NCBI GenBank assembly: GCA_948701955.1
Contig: CAPSSR010000002.1
Span: 1-55,890, forward strand
Direction: 5' to 3'
From: an uncultured Anaeroplasmataceae bacterium
GTDB lineage: Bacteria; Bacillota_I; Bacilli_A; Acholeplasmatales; Anaeroplasmataceae
DNA: 55,890 nt
Shown: in pieces, positions 2,034 to 42,795 of the stretch
Layout of the letters: each line of letters opens with the position of its first letter
Numbering within the stretch: the stretch's first letter is position 1
The notes under the pieces: generated by a model
The model's database searches: none
Told to the model about the DNA's origin: nothing
The model's input: only the letters and a program-made list of their open reading frames with translations
Position numbers and translations under genes: made by a program

Positions 2034-3809
2034 CTAATGAGAATATAATTTGGGTTTTCGTGCAAGAGCAGTGAGAGAGGAGACATTAGTTTTCGTCTGC
2101 TTTTTATATATTTTGTTTTTGTTCTCATTCTCCATTTCACAACAGATACTTAGTCCATACATAAGACTCGTTGCTCTATCTCTCTTTGTGGATTTTACTA
2201 TTCTTGTGTATGTCATTTTTTCTGCATTTGTAAAATCCTGTTTAATATTACTTAATTCACTTTGTAAAATATCATGCTGTATATATTGCTCATATTCATC
2301 CAATGTAAGTTGCCCTTGTTTATGTAATGTATCCACTTCTTCTGATTGCTTTAATAGCTCCAAAGTATGATTTTCAAAACATGCTTTCATGTATGGATAA
2401 TACAAATTTACAAAGTTGTTCATACCATGAATAGCACGAATAATAGGTAATGCACCTTCTATAGTCTTAATTCCTATTTCGTCATCGTCTTGTATTAAAG
2501 GAGGATATTCTGTTACTTTTCCAGTACGTTCATCCCTATATTCCCATGACTCATAGAACAAACTCGGTAAACCGGCACCTGCACCTTGAGCATCGACTAA
2601 TATTCGCTCTGTATTAGGAAATTTTAAATGTAATAGTTCTCTTAGCATATCTCTTTGTTTATTGAGTGGCATACCATTAACAACTTTAGTAAATACGATT
2701 TGCTTTAAATATGTTCCATCTGGTCGTGGCTTGAGCTTAATTACATGTGTACATGCGTTATCAGATCCTTTTGCATCAGAAACAGCAACGTCATGAGTAA
2801 TAATATAAATTGAATTAGACTTTTTAGGTTGTTCTAATTCTGGTCTTTCAAGCACACGACATTCATTTGTCAATTCGTAAGGGAAATAGCTTTCTCCGCT
2901 GGAACCAACAAATATTCCTTCATATTCATAAGCAAATTTGTCTTTAGTCATAGATGGCTTTGATAATTCTTGCTCTATATCGTCTTCGCCAAATAATCCA
3001 GCTTGAATACCTACTTGATAAGGAAAACACATAGCAATATAGTTTTTATTACCATCCACCATTTGTTCATAGTGATATTTAAATCTTTTATATAGTGAAC
3101 TCGTTTTTAGATAGGCAGAAGAAATAAAGATAACTTTGCCTTTTTCGTTTTGCTTCCACTTCAAAGCGTTAGGACGCTTTGTTTTTGTCATAGGAATTAA
3201 AATGGTTTCAATAATGTCATCTTTTACAAGCCGCGCTTCATCAATCAGGAGGTAATGGAACCTCCAGCTTCTCGCACTTTCACCACCACGATCCTGTGCC
3301 AAAGTTATTGCCCTAATCTCAGAACCACCTTTAAATTCCGCATAGCAATCATCAGCACCAGTTCTTATAGGAAAATTTATTTCTCTTGCAATAGCTTCAT
3401 TTTTAGAAAGCTCACCTTTTAATTTCTGAATGATTACGTTACGACTCTGCTGTGACATGCCAGATGCGATACCACACTTCAGCCCCGGATAGAGAATAGA
3501 AACACATACATAGAATAGACATACAATCCATGATTTGCCAATACCACGACAAGCAATTAGACAACTAAATTGACCTCTTCCCATAGCACGTAGTATTACT
3601 CTCTGAAATGGAAAAAGATCTACATGGAGTATGTCAATTACAAACTCATCAATATAATATCTGTAATATGAAAAAAAATCAGTCCATGCTTCATAGTCGA
3701 TAGAAGATTCATTAATTGGGTCATTGGAATATGTGGAGTCAAAATCTTCTGCGTGTTTTTTGTCGTATAATTGTTTTTCCTTTTCCTGCTGTTTTTCGTA
3801 TTTATCCAT
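2034..3809 (-). CDS. terL: terminase large subunit
   Basis: 591 aa; Walker A-like CLIACRGIGKSW, Walker B-like HYLLIDEARLV, C-terminal nuclease-like acidic segments (ITHDVAVSD). Confidence 0.8.
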   Translation of the reverse strand: MDKYEKQQEKEKQLYDKKHAEDFDSTYSNDPINESSIDYEAWTDFFSYYRYYIDEFVIDILHVDLFPFQRVILRAMGRGQFSCLIACRGIGKSWIVCLFYVCVSILYPGLKCGIASGMSQQSRNVIIQKLKGELSKNEAIAREINFPIRTGADDCYAEFKGGSEIRAITLAQDRGGESARSWRFHYLLIDEARLVKDDIIETILIPMTKTKRPNALKWKQNEKGKVIFISSAYLKTSSLYKRFKYHYEQMVDGNKNYIAMCFPYQVGIQAGLFGEDDIEQELSKPSMTKDKFAYEYEGIFVGSSGESYFPYELTNECRVLERPELEQPKKSNSIYIITHDVAVSDAKGSDNACTHVIKLKPRPDGTYLKQIVFTKVVNGMPLNKQRDMLRELLHLKFPNTERILVDAQGAGAGLPSLFYESWEYRDERTGKVTEYPPLIQDDDEIGIKTIEGALPIIRAIHGMNNFVNLYYPYMKACFENHTLELLKQSEEVDTLHKQGQLTLDEYEQYIQHDILQSELSNIKQDFTNAEKMTYTRIVKSTKRDRATSLMYGLSICCEMENENKNKIYKKQTKTNVSSLTALARKPKLYSH

Positions 3810-3819
3810 TTACACACCA

Positions 3820-4767
3820 TTACAATGATTTTGTGATAGTGCTTAAATAGTCTATCATTTCATCAATCGTATCTTTCTTTAATGGTTTGTGTTCTGGAAT
3901 CCAGTTATGAGCTTCTACCATAGCAGCAACTTTTGAAAAACTACTTATACCAACATCATTTACACTTCTGGTACTTTCGCTGAATTTTGCAGACTTTGAA
4001 AGAGTATCAAACGCTTCCCTTGCATTTTTATACCTTGCATCAGCACCATCAATCCCGTTTATCATTCCATCAAATGCTTTATCCATTTGAAGACTTGCTT
4101 TAGCGATTTTACGAGCATAATCACGGTGGTTTTCTGTGATTATCTTATAGTCTCGTTCAAGTCCGGTATAATAATTATTTAAGTAATCAATATCTTTTTG
4201 ACTATACTTACCCATCCATTTATCATCATAAATAAGTTCTTCTTGTTCAATGGTGTTATTTGTAACAGATACAGCTGTATTTTGCTTTTTATCTCTTATA
4301 TCAGAATATCTTTGTATTGTTTGCTCTTTCCTATTTTGTGTATTGGTATTCACAGTTTTATGAGAAAAACCATCTTTTTCAGAATCTACAAAACTTTTAT
4401 TTCTATTTTGTCTCAATGTATTGATATTCTTAAAATAGAAACCAATAATTTCATTTCCATATTTAGCGATTTCATCATCAGATAAATAGCCATGTTCCTT
4501 TTTGCATTGTAAAAATGCAGAATCTAATTCATCTGTATAATATGGCTTGTCCAATCTCTGACACATTGTTTTTAATTTATTTTCATTAACAGTGCCATCT
4601 TTATTTATAACTTCCTTTTTCACACATGAAATACATATTGGTACACACCCATCTAATGAAAATAAAGGACTAGATGATTTATAAAAACCAGTGGCAATAG
4701 ACTTATTATCGCCACAAATAGGACATTTTTTCTTTCTTATTTCTTTTTTTGTAGCTATGAATGCCAC
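3820..4767 (-). CDS. candidate terminase small subunit / zinc-ribbon DNA-binding protein
   Basis: 315 aa directly upstream of terL (10-bp gap); N-terminal CPICGD...CISC zinc ribbon; assignment by position only. Confidence 0.35.
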   Translation of the reverse strand: MAFIATKKEIRKKKCPICGDNKSIATGFYKSSSPLFSLDGCVPICISCVKKEVINKDGTVNENKLKTMCQRLDKPYYTDELDSAFLQCKKEHGYLSDDEIAKYGNEIIGFYFKNINTLRQNRNKSFVDSEKDGFSHKTVNTNTQNRKEQTIQRYSDIRDKKQNTAVSVTNNTIEQEELIYDDKWMGKYSQKDIDYLNNYYTGLERDYKIITENHRDYARKIAKASLQMDKAFDGMINGIDGADARYKNAREAFDTLSKSAKFSESTRSVNDVGISSFSKVAAMVEAHNWIPEHKPLKKDTIDEMIDYLSTITKSL

Positions 4768-23616: not shown

Positions 23617-24747
23617 TTAATAAAAATTATTTTTCAGAATATATTCAATATTATCAAAATCCCAATACCAAATTTCTAATAGTTTAATATTATGATCTTT
23701 TGCATATTGTCTCTTTCTTCTATCATGCTCTTGTTGTTTGTATAACTTCATTTTTGTTTGATGCCTTGCAGTTCCATCGTGAAATTCTCCTTGATATTCT
23801 ATAAGATAGTTGAATTTTGGTATATAAAAGTCAAAAGATAACTTTCCTCCGTTTATTCCAATTAATCCATCAAATTCTTTTTGCCATACATAATTAATAT
23901 TTTTGTTCTTTAATATTTCTTCAATTCTTTTTTCGCCTTTAGATACATTACACTTTGGACATCCACTTTTTTCACCTGTAATTAAATTGCTAGGTTTTGC
24001 TTTCCAGATATATCCGCATTGCAAACATTGAAATTTTATTTTATGATTTACAGTTGAAAATGTTTCTAATGGTTTAATAGATTTATGATTTTTTGATAGT
24101 TCATCTACAAATTCTTCATGTGTTCTTCTTACTTTATTTATACACCTATGGCAATAACCCTTTGAATTAACAAAGGCTGGGATTGTAGTATTCCAACTAT
24201 AGTTACATTTTTTGCATTTGCAAGTAATTTTACTGTCAAGCCCCACATATTCCGCTTTGTTGATTTCTACAATAACATTTGTATTTTTGTTATTTAGCTC
24301 TTCTAAAACTTCATCTAAAGATTTAATACGAGCTTTCTTTTTGCAGCGAGGACAATAATTTCTTTCCACTGTATTTTTGGCGATTTCTTCCCATTCATAT
24401 TCACAAACATTACATCTGCATTTTACTTTATTTAGTATACCATGATACTCGCTTAAAACAGTAAAATTTCTTTTAGACTTTATTTTTTCAAGAAAAGTCT
24501 CATTATTAAGAATTCTTCCTGAACAATAAGGACATGGAATATAAGAATTATTTTTATAGTTTCTTGCAAGTGTATCTGGAGTGATTGAAAAAGTGTTATT
24601 ACAATTTTTGCATTTAAATGTCACATCCGTTTTTGCGTTTTTATACTTATTAAGTAATTCAAGTTGTGGAAATTTGTTATGTATTTCTATTGTATATTCT
24701 TCATTTGTTTTCTTTTTTGGCATTTTATAACAACTCCTTCGTAACAA
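23617..24747 (-). CDS. 4x zinc-ribbon repeat protein with C-terminal DUF559/Vsr-like endonuclease domain
   Basis: 376 aa; four C-x2-C-x-(Y/F)-x-W ... C-x2-C repeats; C-terminal GEKRIEEIL...FDFYIP...LIEYQGEFH resembles PD-(D/E)xK DUF559. Confidence 0.5.
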   Translation of the reverse strand: MLRRSCYKMPKKKTNEEYTIEIHNKFPQLELLNKYKNAKTDVTFKCKNCNNTFSITPDTLARNYKNNSYIPCPYCSGRILNNETFLEKIKSKRNFTVLSEYHGILNKVKCRCNVCEYEWEEIAKNTVERNYCPRCKKKARIKSLDEVLEELNNKNTNVIVEINKAEYVGLDSKITCKCKKCNYSWNTTIPAFVNSKGYCHRCINKVRRTHEEFVDELSKNHKSIKPLETFSTVNHKIKFQCLQCGYIWKAKPSNLITGEKSGCPKCNVSKGEKRIEEILKNKNINYVWQKEFDGLIGINGGKLSFDFYIPKFNYLIEYQGEFHDGTARHQTKMKLYKQQEHDRRKRQYAKDHNIKLLEIWYWDFDNIEYILKNNFY

Positions 24748-24817
24748 TATTAAGAAATAAGATAAGTTGCCTTATCTATATTCCACTTTTCTAAACTTCT
24801 ATTTAATAATTCTGTTT

Positions 24818-24858
24818 TTTCAAACAAAAAGACCAGAAATCCTTTTGACTTCTGGTCT
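24818..24858 (-). terminator. rho-independent terminator
   Basis: 9-bp stem AGACCAGAA/TTCTGGTCT with 11-nt loop; tttttgtttg on minus strand after the stem. Confidence 0.55.
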
Positions 24859-25052
24859 GTATCAATTCTTATAATTGGATTGCTATTTTCAATTAAATAA
24901 TTCGCTAATCGTTTACTTTTACAAACAAACAATGAAATTTTCCTTTCATGAATATATTTTTATATTTTCTAACATTTATATTTTTAAAATTTGTGGGCTG
25001 TTGACGAAGAGCCATACTACGGAGGTTTATTTTACCAAAACAAACAAAGGAA

Positions 25053-25128
25053 TCGGGGATCAGGGACTCGAACCCTGGGCAAACATAGTTTATAAGACTA
25101 CTGCTCTAACCAACTGAGCTAATCCCCA
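25053..25128 (-). tRNA. tRNA-Ile (anticodon TAT), tentative identity
   Basis: Acceptor (T)GGGGAT/ATCCCCG, D-arm GCTC-AGTTGGTTA-GAGC, anticodon stem GTAGT/ACTAT with loop CTTATAA, T-arm CAGGG-TTCGAGT-CCCTG; variable region about 7 nt. Confidence 0.65.
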
Positions 25129-25687
25129 AAAGAAATAAGTGGAGATGCCACCAGAACGGTAGCGCCACCACCTATATAGGAGAAAAATATATGAAGAAAG
25201 AGTGCAATTATCAGATGCTTGAAACAGGACTGAAATGCTGATTTGTGATTTCAACCAATTTGTCATCAGCATTACACTGATGTAATTAACCATATCAATC
25301 ATGATTAATAAAAATCTTTAAAATATTTGCTGTTAATTTTTTCGTATCTTCACAAAAAATTATGTTCAAAAAGATAAGATTGACGCAACGGTTGTCATGA
25401 TTTTAAGTTTTCATTATAGCAAATTACTAGAATTGCAAAATAACATAATTGGCAAATTGCAACGTGCTTAACGAAGATTATATGATATCATATAGGTATA
25501 CTTGATGCTTGGAAATGTTTCCTAACAAATCTGTTATGCACAATGTGTCTTTCGTTTTCATAATTCGATATTTTTTGGACAATATCATACTCGCAGCATT
25601 ATACTTTATCTGCGACTAAAGCGGTTGACCACCACAAAACGCTTATTTCAACCCTGTTGCAAGCATCTGATAGTGGAAGAGGAGTGG

Positions 25688-27173: not shown

Positions 27174-29684
27174 TCATTCAGTATATACAGTGTTTAGTTC
27201 CTCCAATCTTTTTATAAGTTCTTCTCCAATACAATCCCAACAGAACTGCTTGTTCCCCTTATATCCGTAGGTAATGTCTAAAATAATATTCAAACGTTCC
27301 TCATCGTTGGGACATATATCTTTTGCTTCCTGATTAAATTTTGCATATAGGAAACGTCTATTTTTATTAGAATCGCCTTTGTCATGATGCTTTTGTTTTT
27401 TGTATTCTCTTACACATTCACAATAATATTGTTCTAATTCCTTAAGGGCCAATCTATGTTCTTCTGTACAACGTTTTTTTGTTTTTAATACATTGTAATC
27501 AAATGAGGAATTACTGTGTAACCGAGACTTATATCCATCCAACTGGCTTTCCACATATCTACATATTTTATTCATAGAGCAGTTTCCCATGCCAACAGGC
27601 AATTTAAATTCATACCAAAACAAAAATTTTTTCTGATCGTCAGATAAATTGCTAGTGTTTGCATATAAATCCTGAAGAGAACAATTATACAATGCATTGC
27701 ATTTGTTATTACTTTCTTTTATATATTTTTTATAATCACGTTTAGCTTCTTCGTAAATGTAAATCATAAAATATGGTTTTCGATATGCACATATAGACTG
27801 CAAATATCTGTCATCACCACAAGCCCTCATATTATACCATCTGCTGGGCATAGGGTCAGAGATTATTCCTTTAATCCGATCAATCTCATTTTGCTGGTAG
27901 AGCTGTCCACATCCTATCCTATACTCCAATTCCTTATATGCATCAGAATTTTTCTCAAAATGTGATTGTACCTCCATCATTGATGTGACATAATTAGTAA
28001 TAATACCAACTTTATTGCCCATTCCATTTTTATTAGTCTTTTTTACTTCATTTTCTGTAATGATAATTTTGGATGTATTACGCTGAACACATTCAATAGC
28101 GGGAAGTTTCCTATATCTCCTCTTAAGCACGGCGTTATTAGTGGAAAAGAGTATATCACTATCCCAATCACACCCATTTTCTGCCATACAGAATGAGTCC
28201 CAGGCATTAATAATCATAATAGTATCCATATATTGATACCATCGCTTGCACTCATTAGAATTATTTACTCTACACATACGAATATTATTATGGCTTGTCA
28301 TAGGACTTCTAAAAACAACAACGTCCTCTTCATCTTTATTAATCCAAAACTTAGAATAACATTCATCAGCCTCAAGTAATCCTGTAACTTCTAATCCACA
28401 AATAGATTGCATAAGTGCGAATGGATCTCCACTAGCAATTTGATAATTACCTTGTACAAGCAATTTCCCAATCTTGGCATCATTCATTTTCTTTTTAATA
28501 AACCTGTGAACTGAATCAATCACATATGGGTCACCAAGCATATATTCATTTGTATATAATGCCCGCTGCCATGAATTGACCTCTGTATTTTCGGTAATTC
28601 CTAAAAACTTAATAGTAGAAGAGTAGTCTCCACACATAGCATCTTTCAAATAGTTTATAGTTGGTGTACAGAGTTCTTCTATATCATCATTGGTAAATTC
28701 ATATGATTGCAAATATTGATAATTTAGTTCCCGTTGTTCCTCCAACACATGCGGAGAAATTTTTGTGACAGAAAATTCATATCCACATTCTTTATAGGCA
28801 TTCTCATAACTTTCAATATTGTCATATGCCATCCATAATTTGAGAGATGATTCAGTCAAGATTATTTCACATTTACGAATGTCTTGTACATTCCCCCATA
28901 TATCTTCTATAAAATAGTTGCCATTATTAAATTCTTCAACGAATTCTACTATTGGAAATGGATATAACATTCCTTTTAGCCAGGCATTCCTTAAACAGAC
29001 TCCACTTGGAATATAATCTAATCCTAGAGATTGGGCTACTCGTTCCATATAGCCTATAGTACATAGGTTAAAACCATCAGAAACAGTATTTTCTAATTGC
29101 TTATGCAATATTGTTTCCATAACAGGCTCATCAGAATCTTTTCCGTCATCCAAAGATATTACATCTGCAAAGTATTGAGTAACACAGTCTTTAACAACCA
29201 AAATCCCAATTGGGTTACATATTGGTTGAGAGGATGAGCATGTCAATGCTTTATATGCCTCATATTTTGCAGGTACAAGTGGTATATTTTTATTTCTTTT
29301 ACATTCACAAAGTTCATTTAGCTTATCTATATATTTTGAATTGCAAAATAGAAGAGTGTTATTTTTCAAACCGCCAGTAGTCCCAACAAATCTTCGATAA
29401 TTTATGCCATTTACTGTCACGCCTTTATTACAGGTAGCTCTACCAAAATCTGACTTTTTATTTATAACGATTTGTATAAAAATTTTAGAAAAATCAATTT
29501 CTTCAATGCTCTTTTGTAAAACCCTATTTGCCATAATACGGAATTCTTGTGCTTCAAATAGTGCCACAAGTTCCTGAAATTTGAATGCTTCCTTTTTGGT
29601 TATTTTCAGATCCCAATTATAATATTTGAGTTTGTTTGTTCCTATTTTGAAAATCTCATATTGAGGTACGCTAATCCCAGCCAT
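27174..29684 (-). CDS. large hypothetical protein; candidate nucleotidyl-transferase (YonO-like single-subunit RNA polymerase?)
   Basis: 836 aa; VVFRSPMTSHNNIRMC followed about 45 aa later by AENGCDWDSDILFS, reminiscent of the beta-prime R-x-P-x-x-H ... NADFDGD catalytic segment. Confidence 0.5.
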   Translation of the reverse strand: MAGISVPQYEIFKIGTNKLKYYNWDLKITKKEAFKFQELVALFEAQEFRIMANRVLQKSIEEIDFSKIFIQIVINKKSDFGRATCNKGVTVNGINYRRFVGTTGGLKNNTLLFCNSKYIDKLNELCECKRNKNIPLVPAKYEAYKALTCSSSQPICNPIGILVVKDCVTQYFADVISLDDGKDSDEPVMETILHKQLENTVSDGFNLCTIGYMERVAQSLGLDYIPSGVCLRNAWLKGMLYPFPIVEFVEEFNNGNYFIEDIWGNVQDIRKCEIILTESSLKLWMAYDNIESYENAYKECGYEFSVTKISPHVLEEQRELNYQYLQSYEFTNDDIEELCTPTINYLKDAMCGDYSSTIKFLGITENTEVNSWQRALYTNEYMLGDPYVIDSVHRFIKKKMNDAKIGKLLVQGNYQIASGDPFALMQSICGLEVTGLLEADECYSKFWINKDEEDVVVFRSPMTSHNNIRMCRVNNSNECKRWYQYMDTIMIINAWDSFCMAENGCDWDSDILFSTNNAVLKRRYRKLPAIECVQRNTSKIIITENEVKKTNKNGMGNKVGIITNYVTSMMEVQSHFEKNSDAYKELEYRIGCGQLYQQNEIDRIKGIISDPMPSRWYNMRACGDDRYLQSICAYRKPYFMIYIYEEAKRDYKKYIKESNNKCNALYNCSLQDLYANTSNLSDDQKKFLFWYEFKLPVGMGNCSMNKICRYVESQLDGYKSRLHSNSSFDYNVLKTKKRCTEEHRLALKELEQYYCECVREYKKQKHHDKGDSNKNRRFLYAKFNQEAKDICPNDEERLNIILDITYGYKGNKQFCWDCIGEELIKRLEELNTVYTE

Positions 29685-29851
29685 TTATTCTCCCTTTGTT
29701 TTAACAAAAAATATTTGTTCGTTTGAAATTCTAACACATATCATATTTTCTTAATTAACCACTCATAGCCCATGTAATTAACATAAATTACTTGTGGGAG
29801 ATTATATATATGTGATACCATGTTCCACAAATACTTTCTTGATTCTTTTTA

Positions 29852-30091
29852 TTAACACTCTTCCTCCAACGCAATAACTTCAAATCCTAGCCACTCAATT
29901 AAATCCCGTAACCCATAAATACAATCAAAATGCCTACATTCACCATTAAAATTTTCGATGTATTCCTCGCCAGGATAAACTCCTTCACCACATGCAGCAC
30001 AATAAATCCTTGCCTTTGGCAACACATATTTTGGGCATCTTGTACTATGCCCATCAATATACCCACAAACCTCACATTTCAAATCAAGCAA
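29852..30091 (-). CDS. small Cys-rich zinc-finger protein
   Basis: 79 aa; CEVCGY...CPKY...CAACGEG; 8-bp overlap with downstream gene. Confidence 0.4.
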   Translation of the reverse strand: MLDLKCEVCGYIDGHSTRCPKYVLPKARIYCAACGEGVYPGEEYIENFNGECRHFDCIYGLRDLIEWLGFEVIALEEEC

Positions 30092-30515
30092 TCCTCCTCA
30101 AATCATATTTCTCTATTCTTTCTTGAACATATCCATCATTTGTTGTGTAATATATATCTCTGATGCCCAAATCCTTGATGGCAGCCATGCATGATGGACA
30201 TGGCCTGGACAATCCGAACGGCTGATCCTTCCGGATGCGGTATATGTATAATTTGACTTTAGAGAAATTGATATTGAGATGCCTGATTGAATTCAGACAG
30301 TTTATCTCTGCATGTAACTTTGGGAGCAGCTTTTCGTTCTGCTTTCTGTATCTGTTATAGAAATTCTGAGTCGGATGCGTCTTATTGCAATTGCATCCTA
30401 TCCCTATAATTCCTCCTTGGTGGACCGCGACACATCCTATATGGGTCTTATGAAAATCTGATACCATCGCGGCCTGTCTTGCCTTATCGAAATACTTCAT
30501 GTCATGTCTATTCAT
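30084..30515 (-). CDS. dCMP/cytidine deaminase
   Basis: HAEINCL and PCPSCMAAI zinc-binding motifs with VAVHQGGIIGIGCN; first ATG at 30515 chosen; track ORF to 30611 would need TTG. Confidence 0.7.
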   Translation of the reverse strand: MNRHDMKYFDKARQAAMVSDFHKTHIGCVAVHQGGIIGIGCNCNKTHPTQNFYNRYRKQNEKLLPKLHAEINCLNSIRHLNINFSKVKLYIYRIRKDQPFGLSRPCPSCMAAIKDLGIRDIYYTTNDGYVQERIEKYDLRRIA

Positions 30516-35761: not shown

Positions 35762-36025
35762 GATTTTGTTATCTCCTTTGGACTTGTACTAATTTTTTAG
35801 GTCATGATTATTACTTCTACATTTTCATCCAAGAAAGTTAAAAAAGTATTAGTATGTATTTTTAGGTAGGAAAGTGGTTTGTGGGAATAATGTAAAATAT
35901 ATCTCCCTTATGAATGGATTATCATATTCATTTTATATCTCTACTTTTGTCTTGTTTCTTATATAAGTTTTGTAATAAAAAAATAAGACAGATGAAAATC
36001 ACCTGCCTTAAATATTCTTTCTAAA

Positions 36026-37060
36026 TTATTCCGTTATATTTTCTGCCATAAGCCAATTTGATTCTGGCTTTGCTATAAGACGAGCATCCATGTATGCCAT
36101 CTCCATTGATAAGCATGTAGTTGCCTGATAATATCCATTTTTCATTAAGTCTAACACTAAAGCAACATCAGGACTATCATCTTTACCAAAACAAAGCGGT
36201 ACAAGTAACTGAATTTTATTTTGATAATAATGTGGAACAGCTAATTTATAATTTGCTGTTACTTTTTGAATGGCGGTATCAATAACGCCTTTTAGGGTTT
36301 CTAATGGTCTGGCGCTATTTTTAATAGAGTCTGGTAATCTTTGTGACGTGTTTAAGTCATCAAGTATATGTTTGTAATTCTTATTTACATTAAGATGCCA
36401 ATTAAATACTAATCTTGATGGATCAGAAAAGTAATCTGCTCTTTCTGGAAATCTTTCAATATCAAGGCTACCCAACTCATAAGTGTCCTTAAATCCTTTA
36501 AAATACCATTTTGCGGTATTTTCAGATACATTTTTATTAATTTCGCCATAGGCATATATTGGCTCATAGTATTTTGAAAATAATCCAGTATCAAAAGCAC
36601 AATATGTATCAGTTTCTATTACTTTGCCTTCCTCTTGCAATTTCATAAATGTATATTTTAGATAGTTCTTCAGAATGTAGTTATCGTCTTTATCTTCAAA
36701 ACTCCATTTTTCTTGAAGTGCTTTATCTGCTAATTTTTGGATTTGCAGATTATAATCTCCCCAGTACATATAGTTATAAATATCAATGGTTTCCATATAG
36801 TCACCCTCCGTTGATGAAGATAATGCTTGTCTGATTATATCATGTTTTCTGGAAATACAAAAGAAAGACTTGGGAAATTTTATCTCACCTATAAAGAAAT
36901 CATATGGAGCATCATGATAATCCATTATGGTGATAGGAGCCATCCCTTTCTCAATCCTTGCCTTAAAATATGCATCACTTTCATTATCTGCATAGATTAC
37001 CATGATGTCAGAAAAAATAGAATGATATTCTTTTGTTACGGGTATCAAATAAGTATTCAT
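36026..37060 (-). CDS. hypothetical protein
   Basis: 344-aa ORF. Confidence 0.45.
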   Translation of the reverse strand: MNTYLIPVTKEYHSIFSDIMVIYADNESDAYFKARIEKGMAPITIMDYHDAPYDFFIGEIKFPKSFFCISRKHDIIRQALSSSTEGDYMETIDIYNYMYWGDYNLQIQKLADKALQEKWSFEDKDDNYILKNYLKYTFMKLQEEGKVIETDTYCAFDTGLFSKYYEPIYAYGEINKNVSENTAKWYFKGFKDTYELGSLDIERFPERADYFSDPSRLVFNWHLNVNKNYKHILDDLNTSQRLPDSIKNSARPLETLKGVIDTAIQKVTANYKLAVPHYYQNKIQLLVPLCFGKDDSPDVALVLDLMKNGYYQATTCLSMEMAYMDARLIAKPESNWLMAENITE

Positions 37061-38109
37061 GAAAGTTATCTCCTTTGCATCTTTGGATATATTATTGCTC
37101 TGATTATTGTATCTGTGTTCAGCTATACGAAATCAATCTATTCTTTCTCTATCTAGCAGAAGAGCAGATAAGAAAAAACGAAACATAAATGATAGGCTTC
37201 TCTGCAGTATTTTTTCTTATAGATGTATATGGTATGCCAAATCATAAGACTACGTAATGATTTTTTGCCCAAATTCGCTTATAGAAGAAGCATAGGTATA
37301 TTTTATAAGATATGATACTATTTTACGAAAATGGGCCTCAAATCATTTGTGTACGTTATAATGCCAGCAAATTGCTTTCTGCTTTATGTTCAATCTGTAT
37401 TTGGTACTTATTCATTAAAAAAATCTCCGTATTATTTTTTGCATTAGAGCCATAAAATATTATTCTCTTTTTTGTCAGGATATTTAATGAGTTCGGTGAT
37501 GGATGGTATTTGTCCTATTTTTGGATTACGAAAGATATTGATTCTACTGGATGAACTGCATTTTTGCATATATGATTCGTTAGCTTCTTCTAATGAATAT
37601 ACTTAGCAAATATGAAATTCTGAGAAGGGTTCGAGAATATGCTGATTTTATAAGGGATTTTAATATTTTTAGAGGTAATTTTTTCGATTTTGAATGCTGG
37701 AATAATTGTCTGAAAATTTATTTGTGGTTGATTTCGATGGATTTTAGAGGATTGGCTTCGAAGTGCTAACCGAACTGTTTTTTGAATTGTGTAGAAGTTT
37801 GATGCAATTTGGGGATGATAGGTGGAGTCAAAATTTTAAGCTGATGTGAGAATGGAACTGATAAGCGCTTTTGAGGCTTTGACAATCCATTTTAAAATGT
37901 AAATATACCCCCCATATGTCAATATTTTGAGGTATGAGCACCCATAAACAAAACCGCATATTTACTTGTTTTCAAGTTACAAAAATGTTGTATTCATAAC
38001 TTTATATATAGGTCTGATATGTCAACAAATAATCAATTTTGTAATCAGCTATAAGTGGTCATCTATCCATCGCACTTGATTAAAATATATCAATAAAAAA
38101 TTTAAATAT

Positions 38110-38176
38110 ATAAACCTATCGTGCTGGTATGTTAATGAATATAAACTTATTAACATACTAACATAGTAGGTTTATA
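38110..38176. repeat. nested inverted repeats (cruciform-capable palindrome)
   Basis: Outer ATAAACCTAT / TAGGTTTAT (38110-38119 / 38167-38175); inner GTATGTTAAT / ATTAACATAC (38127-38136 / 38149-38158). Confidence 0.6.
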
Positions 38177-38711
38177 GGTGGTTCGGCAACTGTATTAGTC
38201 GGCTAATACGGTTTTGATAAAACAACAAATATACTATTTCCAAAACAACATATCTACTAAAAACCTATTAAAATCTATTGATAATCATCTTAAAAAACAG
38301 GCCTACATTAAACTATGCAACAAATATACAAAATAGTAACATGATAAACACTCTAATAAACACAATAGCACATCAACCATCGCTCCATCATATCATACCC
38401 TACATGTCATCTTTACATCAATAGCACATGCACACAATAACCATGCGCACATGTGCTATACCAGTGCTATATCATTTATTTGCCCTATATACCGCATTTA
38501 TCCCCTAAACCCAACAACTATACCGTCACTACATTTCAGCCCCTATTTGCCCTAAATAGGCCTATACAGTGCCATAATAATCGCTGACTCTAATCAGTCA
38601 CTACTCCATCATATGAACCAATTTCCATCAACCTTCCATCATGAATCCCTTACTATCCAGATTATCCAGATCTGCTTCAATCAGTCCCTTGATATAAGCA
38701 GCGGCGTTATA

Positions 38712-38954
38712 TTATTCAAACACTTTTTTAGTGTCCCTTGTTATAACCTGTATATCACAATCTAGTAAATCCATCATTTTCTTGAAGTCTGAAAAAGAAT
38801 AGTTCCCACGGCTGATTTTGTTTCTTAAAGATTGCGGCAATATATCCATTTTTGCGGCCATTTCAGCAATGTTTGTATGTCTTTCTAATAGTAATTGATT
38901 TATCACTTTCTTTTCGTCCATATCATTTACCCTGATCCTTTGGTTGAATATCAA
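38712..38954 (-). CDS. XRE-family HTH transcriptional regulator
   Basis: 80 aa; HTNIAEMAAKMDILPQSLRNKIS helix-turn-helix. Confidence 0.6.
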   Translation of the reverse strand: MIFNQRIRVNDMDEKKVINQLLLERHTNIAEMAAKMDILPQSLRNKISRGNYSFSDFKKMMDLLDCDIQVITRDTKKVFE

Positions 38955-39213
38955 TAATCAAATCGCAATCCATCGCATTACATAATTCTAGCAATATCTT
39001 TAAACTAGGGTTTTCTGTACGATTGTTTAACAAATTACTGATAGTTGCTTTTGTCCATCCTGTAGCATTGCATAAATCTTTTTGTTTTACATCTAAGTCA
39101 AGCATTAAATGTTTAATCATTAGAGTGACATCTGAAATATTCCCATTGTATTTTACCATTTCTGACCTCCCATAATATACTATATCATATCTTGATAAAT
39201 ATTGTAAATACAA
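38923..39213 (-). CDS. XRE-family HTH transcriptional regulator
   Basis: 96 aa; KQKDLCNATGWTKATISNLLNN helix-turn-helix; overlaps downstream HTH gene by 32 bp. Confidence 0.6.
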   Translation of the reverse strand: MYLQYLSRYDIVYYGRSEMVKYNGNISDVTLMIKHLMLDLDVKQKDLCNATGWTKATISNLLNNRTENPSLKILLELCNAMDCDLIIDIQPKDQGK

Positions 39214-39376
39214 TACTTATTATCTGTTTTTCTATATCATATCATGAAATAACAAAACATTTTAACAGATAAGTATTGACATAGCAATAATAGTATTGTA
39301 ATATAGACTTACCGAAAGGAAAAACAAAAACAGAACATTTGTTCTGAAATAAGAAAACGAAAGGTAGGCATATAAT

Positions 39377-39691
39377 ATGAAAGAATACAGAAAAATAACA
39401 AGAATTGATAAAACAGATAGCTATTCCCCAATAGACATGTACTACACTGCTGAGTATACCGAATACAGAGAAGATGGAATCATAAAATGCAAAGGCACTG
39501 AGGATTTTTCTGGCGAAAGAAAAAATACTTTGCATAGTTGGGATATATGTGTCCCAACTAATAAAACAAATAAAGGTGGACATACAATATGGGATAAAGT
39601 CGATAATATAACTACCACTGATGCAAAAAACGCTAAAAAGATAGCAACTTTTAAGTATGGTAACAAAGTCCAGCTAAGAAAAATAAGATAA
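39377..39691 (+). CDS. hypothetical protein
   Basis: 104-aa ORF divergent from HTH pair. Confidence 0.4.
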   Translation: MKEYRKITRIDKTDSYSPIDMYYTAEYTEYREDGIIKCKGTEDFSGERKNTLHSWDICVPTNKTNKGGHTIWDKVDNITTTDAKNAKKIATFKYGNKVQLRKIR

Positions 39692-39888
39692 TAAATCCCC
39701 TGAAGAGTCTTTGAGAATTAAGACGAAACTACCCACACAAAGGGTAGTCGGGATAGTAACACAAGTAACAATCAATATCCCTAACCGTACCTTGATAATT
39801 GAATAGGCTTTACACCTTCCAGACAATCCGTTATAATAAGATTGTAACAGTATATACTACCATGACAATCAAAAAGGCGGTGAAAGGA

Positions 39889-40068: not shown

Positions 40069-40096
40069 CACAACTGAATAGCAAACAATAAACCAA

Positions 40097-40145
40097 AAGG
40101 TGTAAAGTCTATTGAGTTATCAAGGCTTTACACCTTTTTAATTTA
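40097..40145 (+). terminator. rho-independent terminator
   Basis: 11-bp stem AAGGTGTAAAG / CTTTACACCTT followed by TTTTAATTT. Confidence 0.6.
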
Positions 40146-41050: not shown

Positions 41051-41078
41051 AATATATTGCAAAAAAGCAATAAAATAG

Positions 41079-41107
41079 TTGACATTGATTCTAAAGTGTG
41101 GTAATAT
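41079..41107 (+). promoter_or_regulatory. sigma-70-like promoter facing the GC-rich ORF-free region
   Basis: TTGACA - 17 bp - TAATAT. Confidence 0.4.
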
Positions 41108-41119
41108 AAATACAGTTAA

Positions 41120-42790
41120 GGAAATAGAAAAGCCGCTCCTCAGCTACCAACTAACGAAGCGACTTTTCCCGAAACCACTTAAAAGTGATTGCTCTTATTC
41201 TAACATTTCATTATTCACTTTTCAAGTGTTTTCGCACAAGTTTCCAAAACAAAAATCATAAAGCTGTAAAAATGTTCAGATTCCATGGCAAGCCGAAAAT
41301 CAATTTTTACAGTCCAGACCGTCCAAGAAGTAGGCAGTCAGGGAGTAGCCCCTTTTGAGTACTGACACTGGAGGGTATCTGAAAGTGTAGACCTCAATTG
41401 CATGAAAAGGCTACATGCCGTATCCTTACAAGATTGTATAAGGTAGGATGCACAGGCGGGGAAGGCGTTATACGGCGTAACAGTCACTAATAATAAACCG
41501 TTTAGCGTGATACCACAAAACTTGATTAGTGTCATAGTGTGGGAAATATCCACATACTAAACAGTAATAAAATAAGGATATGTCGAAACTGTCAAAAGCA
41601 GATGGAGAAAATTGTCAGAAACGGCTATAGGCAAGATACCTTGTTTGTAGATACAAAGTAAGATGATTATTATCTGGTGGGAACCGTTAAAACGGCATAG
41701 GGGCAACGGCTATTAAAGCGTTGATGAATGCAAAGAATAAAATAAAAACTGTTTAGGATTTTAAATAGGGTAGCGATTGAAATTTGTATGTTAATAGGCC
41801 CATGTGGGGCGGCATATGAAAAGTAGTCGTTGTGTGGGCTGCCCAAGACAAAAGCCCATTGGAGCCTATACCAGACGCTGAGAAGCTTGAGAGAGATGGA
41901 GCGCAAAAGGCAGGTGAGAATACACCTGAAGGCTGAGATTGCCTTATTCCACCGCTAATTTTACAGACTGACAGACTGTGATTGAGAAAAAGCGGTATAC
42001 AAGCACATATAGGGAAAGAACCATCAAGGGCTTGTCAAGTGGCAAGCCCATTTTACATATAAAACGGACAAACAGAAAGAGAAATATCAATCATAAAGCG
42101 GTCAACTGCTTTTCAAAAAGGAACGTGATGTAAGCGCGGATTCCCCTCCGGTCATGTGGGGAATTCAAAACCATAGCAACGACAATAAGCCTATGGCATA
42201 GAATACAGATCGGGGACTACTACCTGACAGTAAATGGCTTTCCTGGTTTCAGATAGAAATAGCAAATCGGGGAATCGCTCAAGACTGGCAATGCGATTAA
42301 CAAGTTGTGCCGGCATTCCGGGAGCCTGTATATCTCCCGCAAGAAAACAGATTATACACGCATGGGAAGAGCGTTAGACTTAAATGCTGGAATAGTCAGA
42401 CGGTGCGGAAATCTAAGGAAAGTACGGTAAAAACTATCAGGATAAAAATAAATACCGTGAGCGTGTCCGTATAGCGCATTTGCATAAAAGGGTTGATGGC
42501 AAATAGAAACGGCGTCACAGGTTAGGGCGAAAGCTACTATGGCGGAGATAATAAGTTTTATTATTTACCATGCTTACAAAAACAGAATCAAACGTGCGGC
42601 GATGTAGAAAGCCGGTGAACCACCGTTACCAACGGGACATAGCCATATAGGCCGGAAGCATTTAGCCTTTATCCCTTGAAAAGTCTCTTTTGTGGGCATG
42701 GATAAGTAATAAAAGCCTTGAAAAAGTTTTGCGGTTTGACATGAAAAAAGAAGTAGTAAAGTAGTAACTAATAATATAGCTTAGGAGGTG
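41120..42790 (+). ncRNA. candidate large structured non-coding RNA (class unknown)
   Basis: About 1.5 kb with no credible ORF (stops in all frames); GC clearly above the roughly 30 percent background; purine-rich on plus strand; many GC-rich hairpins (GGGCTTG/CAAGCCC, CGGGAG/CTCCCG, CCGTT/AACGG, ATTCCCC/GGGGAAT). Confidence 0.3.
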
Positions 42791-42795
42791 TCTAA

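What the first reader, a model, noticed from the sequence alone, without database searches (positions are those of the whole stretch)
37061..38711. 1.65-kb ORF-free region with nested palindromes and a strand-skewed A+C tract: candidate replication origin or control hub
No ORF of 60 aa or longer is present. It contains a nested pair of 10-bp inverted repeats (38110-38176) capable of cruciform formation. There is an AT-rich stretch at 37990-38300. The roughly 370-bp tract 38330-38700 has almost no G on the plus strand and holds at least five CCATCA-type repeats, a TATCCAGAttATCCAGA direct repeat, and the perfect palindrome GCACATGTGC at 38447-38456. The region separates the leftward early block from the divergent HTH regulator cluster, where an origin, iterons or a packaging site would be expected.
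Basis: seen in the sequence. Interest (0 to 1): 0.6.

Follow-up and report, generated by a model that had tools for sequence, protein, structure and literature searches.

The report
Phage DNA packaging and genome-end region
This gene-free stretch is most likely where the phage genome is cut and fed into new capsids, because it carries the same conserved cut-site motif and layout as the mapped packaging site of Bacillus phage SPbeta; nothing marks it as a replication origin.

Summary
37157-38711 is the longest ORF-free stretch in the window. The hairpin is significant (z -5.9), and 38221-38700 has the most negative GC skew in the window.

This motif has fixed spacing and occurs in about 40 distinct uncultivated 50-200 kb phages. 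It also occurs in Bacillus phage SPbeta, between yonP and yonR. That is where restriction mapping and read coverage place the genome opening point, or pac site.

The published 251-bp SPbeta "pac fragment" starts inside the motif, at GGAAGT|GCTATGG. Two GenBank records break at its two edges.

Across 42 elements, GC skew is neutral over a roughly 250-bp core. It is strongly opposite over about 450 bp on either side, starting at the cut. Clostridium phage c-st (TerL 59.5% identical) shows the same arm/repeat/arm layout around its 404-bp terminal repeat.

I read the region as the packaging and terminus module of an SPbeta/c-st-like phage. The predicted cut is 37859|37860 and the core is about 37860-38216. 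Two margins are gene remnants. There is no evidence for an origin. What the skewed arms do is unresolved.

The parts
37061..37415 (-). Gene-replacement scar. It contains a duplicated RBS/start context (37409-37439, matching 37054-37084) and a dead N-terminal remnant, MNKYQIQIEHK...stop, read from the minus-strand ATG at 37415.
   Evidence: Direct repeat D4 is 71% identical over 31 nt. The remnant matches the L009-type N-terminus MNKYEIQI. The DUF3825 gene is a 1,284-bp cassette (35781-37064) absent from otherwise 94-99% identical strains.
37459..37468 (.). Conserved box, TATTATTCTC here and TATATTCTCT in relatives. In relatives it lies about 40 nt upstream of the first gene's RBS. It may be a promoter or operator element; its role was not tested.
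   Evidence: TATTCTC and ATTCTCT are present in 10 of 10 relatives' arms. Nearly invariant columns in alignment A3.
37440..37859 (.). Left arm. It is G+T-rich and C-poor on the plus strand (A .28, C .09, G .23, T .40) and ends exactly at the predicted cut. It carries TTCGR-type CpG motifs: GAGTTCGGTG at 37480-37489 and TTCGAAG...CCGAAC at 37757-37776.
   Evidence: GC skew is +0.36 to +0.51. The same arm occurs in every relative. TTCGR motifs peak at 0 to +450 from the cut.
37846..37913 (-). Conserved bipartite motif. On the minus strand it reads GGGGGG-TATA-TTTACATT-N37-AGTTCCATTCTCAC. Block A is 37894-37913 and block B is 37846-37863. The predicted terminase cut or genome opening point lies between 37859 and 37860 (plus strand GTGAGAATGGAACT|GATAAGCG).
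   Evidence: It is the only match in the window, with 0 expected by chance. A profile built from 44 other phages hits 37825-37915 at E = 1.3e-17 and hits SPbeta and BUCT082 at E = 4.6e-6 and 7.5e-7. The spacing is fixed, with no coding frame and no RNA consensus structure. The SPbeta 251-bp pac fragment starts at the homologous position, and the BUCT083 record breaks there.
37860..38216 (.). Skew-neutral, AT-rich core. This is the predicted terminal-repeat or pac block. The left edge is set by homology. The right edge is only estimated (38192-38216), from where G depletion starts and from the boundary-type motif GGTGGTTCGGCAACT at 38177-38191.
   Evidence: The meta-profile shows a neutral core of about 250-300 bp, with a median estimate of 250 bp and 340 bp for this phage. 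The SPbeta block is 251-252 bp. The c-st TDR is 404 bp with the same flanking skews. A secondary TTCGR peak lies at -300 to -200 from the cut.
38109..38212 (.). Two hairpins inside the core: 28-nt imperfect arms at 38109-38136 and 38149-38176, and an 11-bp stem at 38188-38212. On the minus strand the first is followed by a T-rich run, so it resembles a terminator. Relatives carry an AT-rich palindrome in the same zone with a different sequence.
   Evidence: Palindromes in relatives such as CCATAATAGTATAGTATTATGG are shown. Kohm et al. show inverted repeats in the SPbeta pac fragment.
38217..38663 (.). Right arm. It is A+C-rich and G-poor on the plus strand, making it the mirror image of the left arm.
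   Evidence: GC skew is -0.48 to -0.56, the most extreme in the window. The equivalent arm is present upstream of the motif in the relatives and in SPbeta.
38664..38711 (-). Remnant of the 3' end of a ribbon-helix-helix gene (..NAAAYIKGLIEADLDNLD..). It lies in frame just after the stop of the 69-aa HTH gene. The TATCCAGAttATCCAGA repeat is inside it.
   Evidence: The translation is. It matches the C-termini of intact 66-72-aa proteins in L009-type loci.

Best explanation
The region is the DNA-packaging and genome-terminus module of an SPbeta/c-st-like tailed phage.

Proposed mechanism: the terminase recognises a bipartite DNA signal. The terminase is the YonF-like large subunit at 2034-3809, probably working with the YonG-like zinc-ribbon protein at 3820-4767. 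The signal consists of block B (AGTTCCATTCTCAC) and block A (GGGGGGTATATTTACATT), 37 nt apart. It is flanked by short TTCGR-type CpG motifs that probably act as accessory binding sites.

The terminase would cut between 37859 and 37860. The AT-rich, hairpin-bearing, skew-neutral core of about 360 bp to the right (to roughly 38216) corresponds to the 251-bp high-coverage block of SPbeta-like phages and to the 404-bp terminal direct repeat of c-st. It is probably a short terminal repeat present at both ends of virion DNA.

By analogy with SPbeta, packaging would run leftward, into the DUF3825/Ant/ParB/YonO/terminase operon.

Shown here: sequence homology of the motif, its position and the composition layout. 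Inferred: the cut position, the terminal-repeat status, the packaging direction and which proteins bind.

The two strand-skewed arms of about 450 bp begin exactly at the edges of the core. Their role is unknown.
For: 1. The lineage is SPbeta/c-st-like.
- TerL is 59.5% identical to c-st and 26% identical to SPbeta YonF (E = 7e-48).
- There is a YonO-like protein (E = 2e-20) and a YonG-like protein (E = 1e-9).
- Gene order matches both phages.

2. The motif at 37846-37903 is unique in the window. It recurs with an invariant 37-nt spacer in about 40-45 distinct phage contigs of 50-200 kb.

3. A profile built from those contigs, without the window, finds the window at E = 1.3e-17. It finds SPbeta at L138 14498-14585 at E = 4.6e-6, which is in the yonP-yonR intergenic region.

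4. Fink and Zahler 1982 and Kohm et al. place the SPbeta genome opening point, or pac site, between yonR and yonP. Their 251-252-bp 'pac fragment' begins GCTATGGGTAC..., immediately after GGAAGT of block B. It contains block A.

5. The BUCT083 GenBank record breaks at that same base. The BUCT082 record breaks 251 bp further on, at the other edge.

6. The meta-profile of 42 non-redundant elements, with the cut at 0, gives:
- GC skew -0.40 to -0.64 from 0 to +450;
- a neutral core from -300 to 0;
- GC skew +0.32 to +0.46 from -750 to -350;
- a median core length of 250 bp;
- TTCGR motifs peaking at both core edges.
SPbeta shows the same skews.

7. In c-st, the experimentally defined 404-bp TDR has a G-rich arm before it and a C-rich arm after it.

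8. The module 37065-38924 travels as a unit at 97% identity or more between strains whose flanks differ.
Against: - No virion-end or read-coverage data exist for this phage or its gut relatives. None of the metagenome contigs examined ends at 37859/37860.
- The match to SPbeta is short (about 88 nt, 24 bits).
- c-st gives no significant profile hit and only a loose resemblance at its terminus.
- Kohm et al. interpret the SPbeta data as pac/headful packaging rather than fixed terminal repeats, so the terminal-repeat reading is my inference.
- The right edge of the core in the window is only estimated.
- An sRNA (ncr1052) has been reported in the SPbeta yonR-yonP gap on the yonP strand. The element may therefore also, or instead, have a transcriptional role.
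Confidence: 0.72

Rival explanations
1. Early-transcription control hub. The core would hold outward-facing promoters and a terminator for the inward regulator operon. The G-poor arms would be long untranslated leaders, for example Rho-loading or attenuation tracts, or an sRNA. The conserved motif would be a promoter or operator rather than a terminase site. This could coexist with packaging.
For: - The region lies at the divergence of the leftward and rightward gene blocks.
- On the minus strand the hairpin is followed by a T-rich run, and relatives have a palindrome followed by T6.
- Block A contains TTTACA.
- The box TATATTCTCT is conserved about 40 nt upstream of the first RBS.
- Outward transcripts would be C-rich and G-poor over about 450 nt.
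- Irnov et al. list a 183-nt RNA (ncr1052) between yonR and yonP on the yonP strand. By my coordinate bracketing it overlaps or abuts the motif.
Against: - No conserved -10 element lies 16-18 nt from TTTACA in any relative.
- The promoter scan finds no more sites than shuffled sequence does, and none that is strong in this region.
- In the window and in L009/L040, the right arm faces inward-pointing genes, so it is not a leader there.
- This reading does not explain why two GenBank records and the coverage block have their edges exactly at the motif.
Confidence: 0.12
2. Replication origin. The AT-rich core would act as a DNA-unwinding element with hairpins, and the TTCGR motifs or right-arm words would act as initiator binding sites. 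G-rich transcripts converging on the core might prime synthesis through R-loops.
For: - The core is AT-rich (GC 0.26-0.28).
- The hairpins are significant.
- Short repeated motifs sit at both edges.
- The cumulative GC skew minimum lies nearby, at about 39 kb.
- The origin of SPbeta-like phages is unknown.
Against: - There is no DnaA-box enrichment.
- There is no regular iteron array.
- No initiator, helicase or primase gene is adjacent. In c-st and SPbeta these genes lie tens of kb away.
- The local skew has the polarity of a terminus, not an origin.
- The global skew minimum is confounded by the switch in gene strand.
Confidence: 0.08
3. The region is mainly decayed coding sequence or recombination debris with no function of its own.
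For: - Two margins are demonstrable gene remnants: 37061-37415 and 38664-38711.
- All differences among close strains in 36000-38711 fall between 37529 and 38632 (the four others lie in the 69-aa gene), with none in the adjacent DUF3825 gene.
- The flanks are mosaic.
Against: - No protein from 44 related loci matches the interior beyond chance.
- A motif of about 90 bp with fixed spacing, together with the arm/core/arm composition, is conserved from gut Clostridia-type phages to Bacillus SPbeta. Debris would not be conserved in this way.
Confidence: 0.04
4. A structured non-coding RNA gene such as a ribozyme, a riboswitch or a large ncRNA.
For: The region is a long gene-free stretch with a conserved island. 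A real hammerhead ribozyme lies 1.8 kb away.
Against: - There is no Rfam match even at E = 5.
- RNAalifold finds no consensus pairs on either strand for 10 homologues.
- The GGGGG...CCCC pairing idea is not supported by covariation.
- The arms lack G on one strand or C on the other, so they cannot form stable structure.
Confidence: 0.03

Closest known systems
pac / genome-opening region of Bacillus phage SPbeta and relatives (phi3T, Goe11-14), between yonP and yonR (Fink and Zahler 1982; Kohm et al., bioRxiv 10.1101/2021.11.22.469490; review PMC8270828)
   Same: - The position is the same, at the divergence point upstream of the yonP/yonO-to-terminase operon.
- The bipartite motif is the same, with the same 37-nt spacer.
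- The published 251-bp fragment starts at the homologous base and contains block A.
- The G-rich arm / neutral core / C-rich arm layout is the same.
   Different: - Outside the motif the sequences do not align.
- The accessory CpG motif is ATCGTAA/ATCGAAG in SPbeta and TTCGR here.
- The core is estimated at about 340-360 bp here, against 251 bp.
- The neighbouring genes differ: DUF3825/HTH here, yonP/yonR in SPbeta.
- The ends have not been mapped for this phage.
- The published work did not describe the motif's conservation beyond Bacillus, nor the skewed arms.
404-bp terminal direct repeats of Clostridium botulinum phage c-st (NC_007581 annotation)
   Same: - It is the closest cultured relative by TerL (59.5%) and has the same gene order.
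- On the plus strand the TDR is preceded by a G-rich arm carrying CG-containing repeats (CGATACAC/TATCGT) and followed by a C-rich arm.
- A TACCCCC word lies just inside the repeat.
   Different: - There is no significant match to the motif profile.
- The terminus lies about 6 kb from the gene-orientation switch rather than at it.
Headful pac sites of SPP1 and P1, with small-terminase binding boxes flanking the cut (textbook knowledge)
   Same: Short repeated words lie on both sides of a cleavage zone, and the region is non-coding or AT-rich and hairpin-prone.
   Different: - There is no sequence similarity. Kohm et al. also report none between SPbeta and SPP1.
- Neither site is known, to my knowledge, to have 450-bp strand-skewed arms.
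- Two sharp edges about 250 bp apart look more like a short direct terminal repeat than a headful series.
Iteron or DnaA-box replication origins (lambda ori, theta plasmids)
   Same: An AT-rich segment lies next to repeated short motifs and palindromes, in a divergent intergenic position.
   Different: There are no regular 17-22-bp iterons, no DnaA-box cluster and no adjacent initiator gene, and the local skew has the opposite polarity.

Membership tests
SPbeta-type pac / genome-opening region | Lies in the intergenic gap at the head of the operon that runs through yonO to the terminase and portal genes, in an SPbeta/c-st-like genome | tested here: met
   YonO-like, YonG-like, YonF-like and portal genes lie on the minus strand downstream of the region, and rightward genes lie on the other side. 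The arrangement matches SPbeta and c-st.
SPbeta-type pac / genome-opening region | Sequence homology to the left edge of the mapped 251-bp SPbeta pac fragment (block B, cut, block A) | tested here: met
   A profile from 44 other phages hits the window at E = 1.3e-17, SPbeta at E = 4.6e-6 and BUCT082 at E = 7.5e-7, each at the syntenic site.
SPbeta-type pac / genome-opening region | Physical DNA ends, or a sharp read-coverage step, at the site in virion DNA | not testable with these tools
   No virion reads are available. The metagenome contigs examined do not end at 37859/37860. A 14-mer scan for contigs starting at the cut returned only chance hits.
Short direct terminal repeat (c-st / T7 type) | The same block is present at both ends of the packaged molecule, with two fixed edges | tested here: inconclusive
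   - In SPbeta-like phages two record breakpoints lie 251 bp apart, and a precise high-coverage block of equal size occurs in all isolates.
- c-st has an annotated 404-bp TDR.
- The neutral core has a median of 250 bp across 39 elements.
- There are no direct data for the window phage, and Kohm et al. favour headful packaging.
Iteron/DnaA-type replication origin | An array of at least 3 regularly spaced direct repeats, or a cluster of DnaA boxes | tested here: not met
   Only 2-3-copy imperfect short repeats were found. DnaA boxes occur at chance level, with one 1-mismatch hit in the region.
Iteron/DnaA-type replication origin | AT-rich unwinding element | tested here: met
   GC is 0.26-0.28 over 37900-38300. 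This feature is not specific to origins.
Iteron/DnaA-type replication origin | Adjacent initiator or replication genes, and origin-type skew polarity | tested here: not met
   The neighbours are DUF3825, AntA, ParB-like and HTH proteins. The local skew runs from + to - on the plus strand, which is the polarity of a terminus.
Known structured RNA families (Rfam 15) | Covariance-model match or conserved base-paired structure | tested here: not met
   No hit in the region at the gathering threshold and only noise at E up to 5. RNAalifold finds 0 consensus pairs on either strand.

The most novel reading that the evidence does not exclude
The two arms of about 450 bp start exactly at the edges of the terminal block. 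In both, the strand whose 3' end points to the genome end is G-rich and C-poor. They may be a conserved and so far undescribed part of SPbeta-type genome ends, for one of two reasons.

(a) They are a mutational footprint. The 3'-ended strand would be repeatedly single-stranded next to the terminal repeat, through end resection for circularisation or strand displacement when the repeat is duplicated. C-to-T and A-to-G deamination would follow, as on the mitochondrial heavy strand. The repeat itself would stay neutral because it is exposed on opposite strands at the two ends.

(b) They are a selected, telomere-like polarity needed for end processing, terminase loading or insulation of the ends.
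Probability: 0.35. Interest if true: 0.65.

Novelty: new member of a known kind. Interest (0 to 1): 0.45.

Why it matters
It assigns a function to the largest gene-free stretch of an uncultivated mouse-gut phage. It also gives a simple sequence signature, GGGGG-N4-TTTACATT-N37-RTTCCAYTCACAC flanked by opposite GC skews. That signature locates the packaging start and probable genome ends in a whole lineage of large SPbeta/c-st-like phages and phage-plasmids, from Bacillus to gut Firmicutes.

This helps to orient and complete metagenomic phage genomes. It also predicts transduction start points and gives SPbeta workers a concrete terminase target to mutate. The sharply bounded skewed arms are a separate puzzle that can be tested.

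Tried and rejected
- Alternative genetic codes (TGA, TAG or TAA recoded) open no gene.
- DNA search of 50,697 phage records with the region and with 24 kb of the window found no match.
- An exact 33-mer of the hairpin was not found in IMG/VR.
- Pseudogene search: all ORFs of 40 aa or more from 44 related loci, by tblastn against the region, gave only the two marginal remnants.
- Rfam at gathering and permissive thresholds found nothing in the region.
- RNAalifold on 10 homologues, both strands, gave no pairs.
- The GGGGG/CCCC stem idea is not supported by covariation.
- Canonical sigma-A, sigma-54 and sigma-H readings of the motif by eye found no conserved -10 at the proper spacing. The scan found no excess of promoters.
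- A-tract phasing: an apparent period of about 11 bp did not survive a shuffle test.
- Tandem repeats in the arms: none.
- The YonO promoter idea was dropped. The SPbeta YonO start maps upstream of yonK, not here, and the motif occurs once per window.
- Chi-site shield idea: there are no B. subtilis Chi sites (AGCGG) in either SPbeta arm.
- No polar k-mer is shared by both arms across 37 loci beyond what composition predicts.
- DnaA boxes are at chance level.
- Looking for contigs that start at the cut with a 14-mer scan was swamped by chance hits.
- Contig ends of close strains fall at 38257-38651, which is variable and not informative.
- c-st gives no profile hit.
Full report
WHAT IS THERE

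The window is a low-GC (about 32%) tailed-phage genome segment. It is identical to a contig of a mouse-gut MAG, GCA_948631185.1.

Everything left of 37060 is on the minus strand. In transcription order the genes are:
- DUF3825, 36026-37060
- AntA-type anti-repressor
- ParB-like protein
- dCMP deaminase
- an 836-aa YonO-like protein
- exonuclease
- tail genes
- YonG-like protein
- large terminase, 2034-3809
- portal

Three small minus-strand ORFs, two of them HTH-type regulators, sit at 38712-39583. Plus-strand genes follow from about 42.8 kb. The finding therefore lies at the head of the long leftward operon.

- 37157-38711 is the longest stretch of the window without an ORF of 60 aa or more.
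- No alternative genetic code opens a gene, and independent gene callers leave the region empty.
- The hairpin at 38109-38176 and a second one at 38188-38212 together fold far better than shuffled sequence (z = -5.9).
- The tract 38330-38700 has 8.9% G against 29.6% C, and 38221-38700 has the most negative skew in the window.
There are four exact CCATCA copies, not five. The TATCCAGA repeat lies in a gene remnant.
The two flank an AT-rich centre.

TWO MARGINS ARE SCARS

Left margin, 37061-37415:
- 37409-37439 repeats the RBS/start context of the DUF3825 gene.
- The minus-strand ATG at 37415 opens MNKYQIQIEHK... and then stops. This matches the N-terminus of another DUF3825 allele, MNKYEIQI.
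- The present DUF3825 gene is a 1,284-bp cassette that is missing from otherwise 94-99% identical strains.

Right margin, 38664-38711:
- It encodes, in frame after the stop of the 69-aa HTH gene, the C-terminal motif (AYIKGLIEADLDN) of a ribbon-helix-helix protein that is intact in relatives.

THE CONSERVED ELEMENT

Forty-four IMG/VR loci encoding DUF3825 relatives were fetched. Their non-coding DNA hardly aligns with the window, apart from an island at 37819-37912.

On the minus strand the island reads GGGGG-TATR-TTTACATT-N37-RTTCCAYTCACAC.
- It is not coding, because the reading frames differ between relatives.
- It has no consensus RNA fold on either strand.
- Its spacer never varies in length.

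After removing short-spacer chance hits and near-duplicates, 39-45 distinct elements remain, depending on the identity cut-off. All are in contigs of 50-200 kb. The motif occurs once in the window, with none expected by chance.

THE COMPOSITION LAYOUT IS UNIVERSAL

The following figures come from 42 non-redundant elements read in motif orientation, with position 0 placed after ...TATC:
- from 0 to +450, GC skew is -0.40 to -0.64;
- from -300 to 0, it is neutral;
- from -750 to -350, it is +0.32 to +0.46.

The median length of the neutral core is 250 bp, and the estimate for this phage is 340 bp.

The few Cs on the C-poor strand sit largely in TTCGR-type CpG motifs. These motifs are almost absent elsewhere. 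They peak just outside position 0 and again at -300 to -200, which is at both edges of the core.

THE LINK TO MAPPED GENOME ENDS

The large terminase is 59.5% identical to that of Clostridium phage c-st and 26% identical to SPbeta YonF. YonO and YonG homologues are also present.

SPbeta carries the same motif at L138 14517-14574 (three mismatches to the pattern). A profile built without the window or SPbeta scores it at E = 4.6e-6. The site lies in the yonP-yonR gap and has the same skews: +0.5 to +0.66 on one side and -0.25 to -0.39 on the other.

That gap is where restriction mapping (Fink and Zahler 1982) and read-coverage analysis of four isolates place the genome opening point, or pac site. 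A precise high-coverage block of about 250 bp, equal in all isolates, lies there.
- The supplementary sequence of that block begins GCTATGGGTACATCTG..., immediately after GGAAGT of block B. It contains block A and ends ...GGGAATCGAAG.
- The GenBank record of BUCT083 is broken at exactly the first edge. The BUCT082 record is broken 251 bp away, at the second edge.
- In c-st, the annotated 404-bp terminal direct repeat is preceded by a G-rich arm with CG-containing repeats and followed by a C-rich arm. The motif profile itself does not hit c-st.

INTERPRETATION

The region is the packaging and terminus module of this phage.
- Transferring the SPbeta edge by alignment puts the cut between 37859 and 37860 (GTGAGAATGGAACT|GATAAGCG).
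- The core runs to about 38192-38216. There G depletion begins and a boundary-type motif, GGTGGTTCGGCAACT, sits.

I regard the core as a probable short terminal repeat, for three reasons: two sharp edges, the c-st precedent and neutral skew. This is inference, and Kohm et al. favour headful packaging.

ALTERNATIVES

Replication origin:
- DnaA boxes are at chance level.
- There are no regular iterons and no neighbouring replication genes.
- The local skew has terminus-type polarity.
- The global skew minimum coincides with the switch in gene strand.

Transcriptional role, which cannot be excluded and may coexist:
- Terminator-like hairpins lie on the minus strand.
- A conserved TATATTCTCT box lies upstream of the first RBS.
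- A 183-nt RNA (ncr1052) has been reported on the yonP strand in the SPbeta gap. By bracketing coordinates from the same table, I place it over or next to the motif.
- Against this, no conserved -10 accompanies TTTACA.

THE ARMS REMAIN UNEXPLAINED

- They are not phased A-tracts.
- They are not Chi arrays, since neither SPbeta arm contains AGCGG.
- They are not built from a shared polar word.

Their polarity suggests two possibilities. The G-rich strand is the one whose 3' end points to the genome end, the skew decays with distance, and the repeat between them is neutral. One possibility is a single-strand-exposure mutational footprint. The other is a selected telomere-like polarity. G is enriched as well as C depleted, and T excess is not universal, so simple cytosine deamination alone is not enough.

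VERDICT

This is a real feature, and it was correctly flagged as special. It is best explained as a new member of the SPbeta-type pac/terminus region rather than an origin. Interest is moderate. The main added value is the cross-lineage signature and the sharply bounded skewed arms.

Noticed in passing
window 39667-39754 (+); also L040 6390-6449: A probable hammerhead ribozyme. All core nucleotides are intact (AUCCC-CUGAAGAG-stem II-CGAAAC-stem III-GUC-GGGAU). It matches RAGATH-1-hammerhead RF03152 at 31.8 bits, below the gathering score of 56.3, and Hammerhead_1 at 20.1 bits. The same element is present in the closest IMG/VR relative.
   Followed up: partly
window 41051-42795: A second stretch of 1.75 kb in which gene callers call no gene. 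GC is raised (0.39-0.48) and there is a terminator-like hairpin at 42028-42049. Parts are conserved in relatives L091, L040, L060 and L057. There is no Rfam hit and no similarity to the unannotated ncRNA region between yonN and yonK of SPbeta.
   Followed up: partly
window 35781-37064: The DUF3825 gene with its RBS is a presence/absence cassette. Five otherwise 94-99% identical metagenome contigs join 35780 directly to 37065, so that AntA abuts the non-coding region.
   Followed up: yes
window 38924 / 39787: A mosaic breakpoint. Strains share 36000-38924 at more than 99% identity, carry a different regulator module between 38925 and 39786, and then realign from 39787. Short islands at 39787-39817 and 40095-40144 are 90-93% identical even in distant relatives.
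   Followed up: no
window 27174-29684 (-): An 836-aa protein with no Pfam hit is a distant homologue of SPbeta YonO, the single-chain RNA polymerase that transcribes late genes (24% identity over 476 aa, E = 2e-20). The upstream gap at about 29721-30140 has the second most negative GC skew of the window.
   Followed up: partly
window 23617-25129 (-): An HNH/homing-endonuclease-like gene (376 aa) lies next to tRNA-Ile(TAT), between the YonO-like gene and the YonJ-like exonuclease. That is the position where SPbeta has its YonO promoter and long leader. The window carries four tRNA genes (Asn, Lys, Tyr, Ile).
   Followed up: no
L137+L138 (SPbeta 1-90000): The B. subtilis Chi word AGCGG occurs 31 times on the plus strand and 4 times on the minus strand of the first 90 kb of the SPbeta record. 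It is absent from both arms around the pac block.
   Followed up: no
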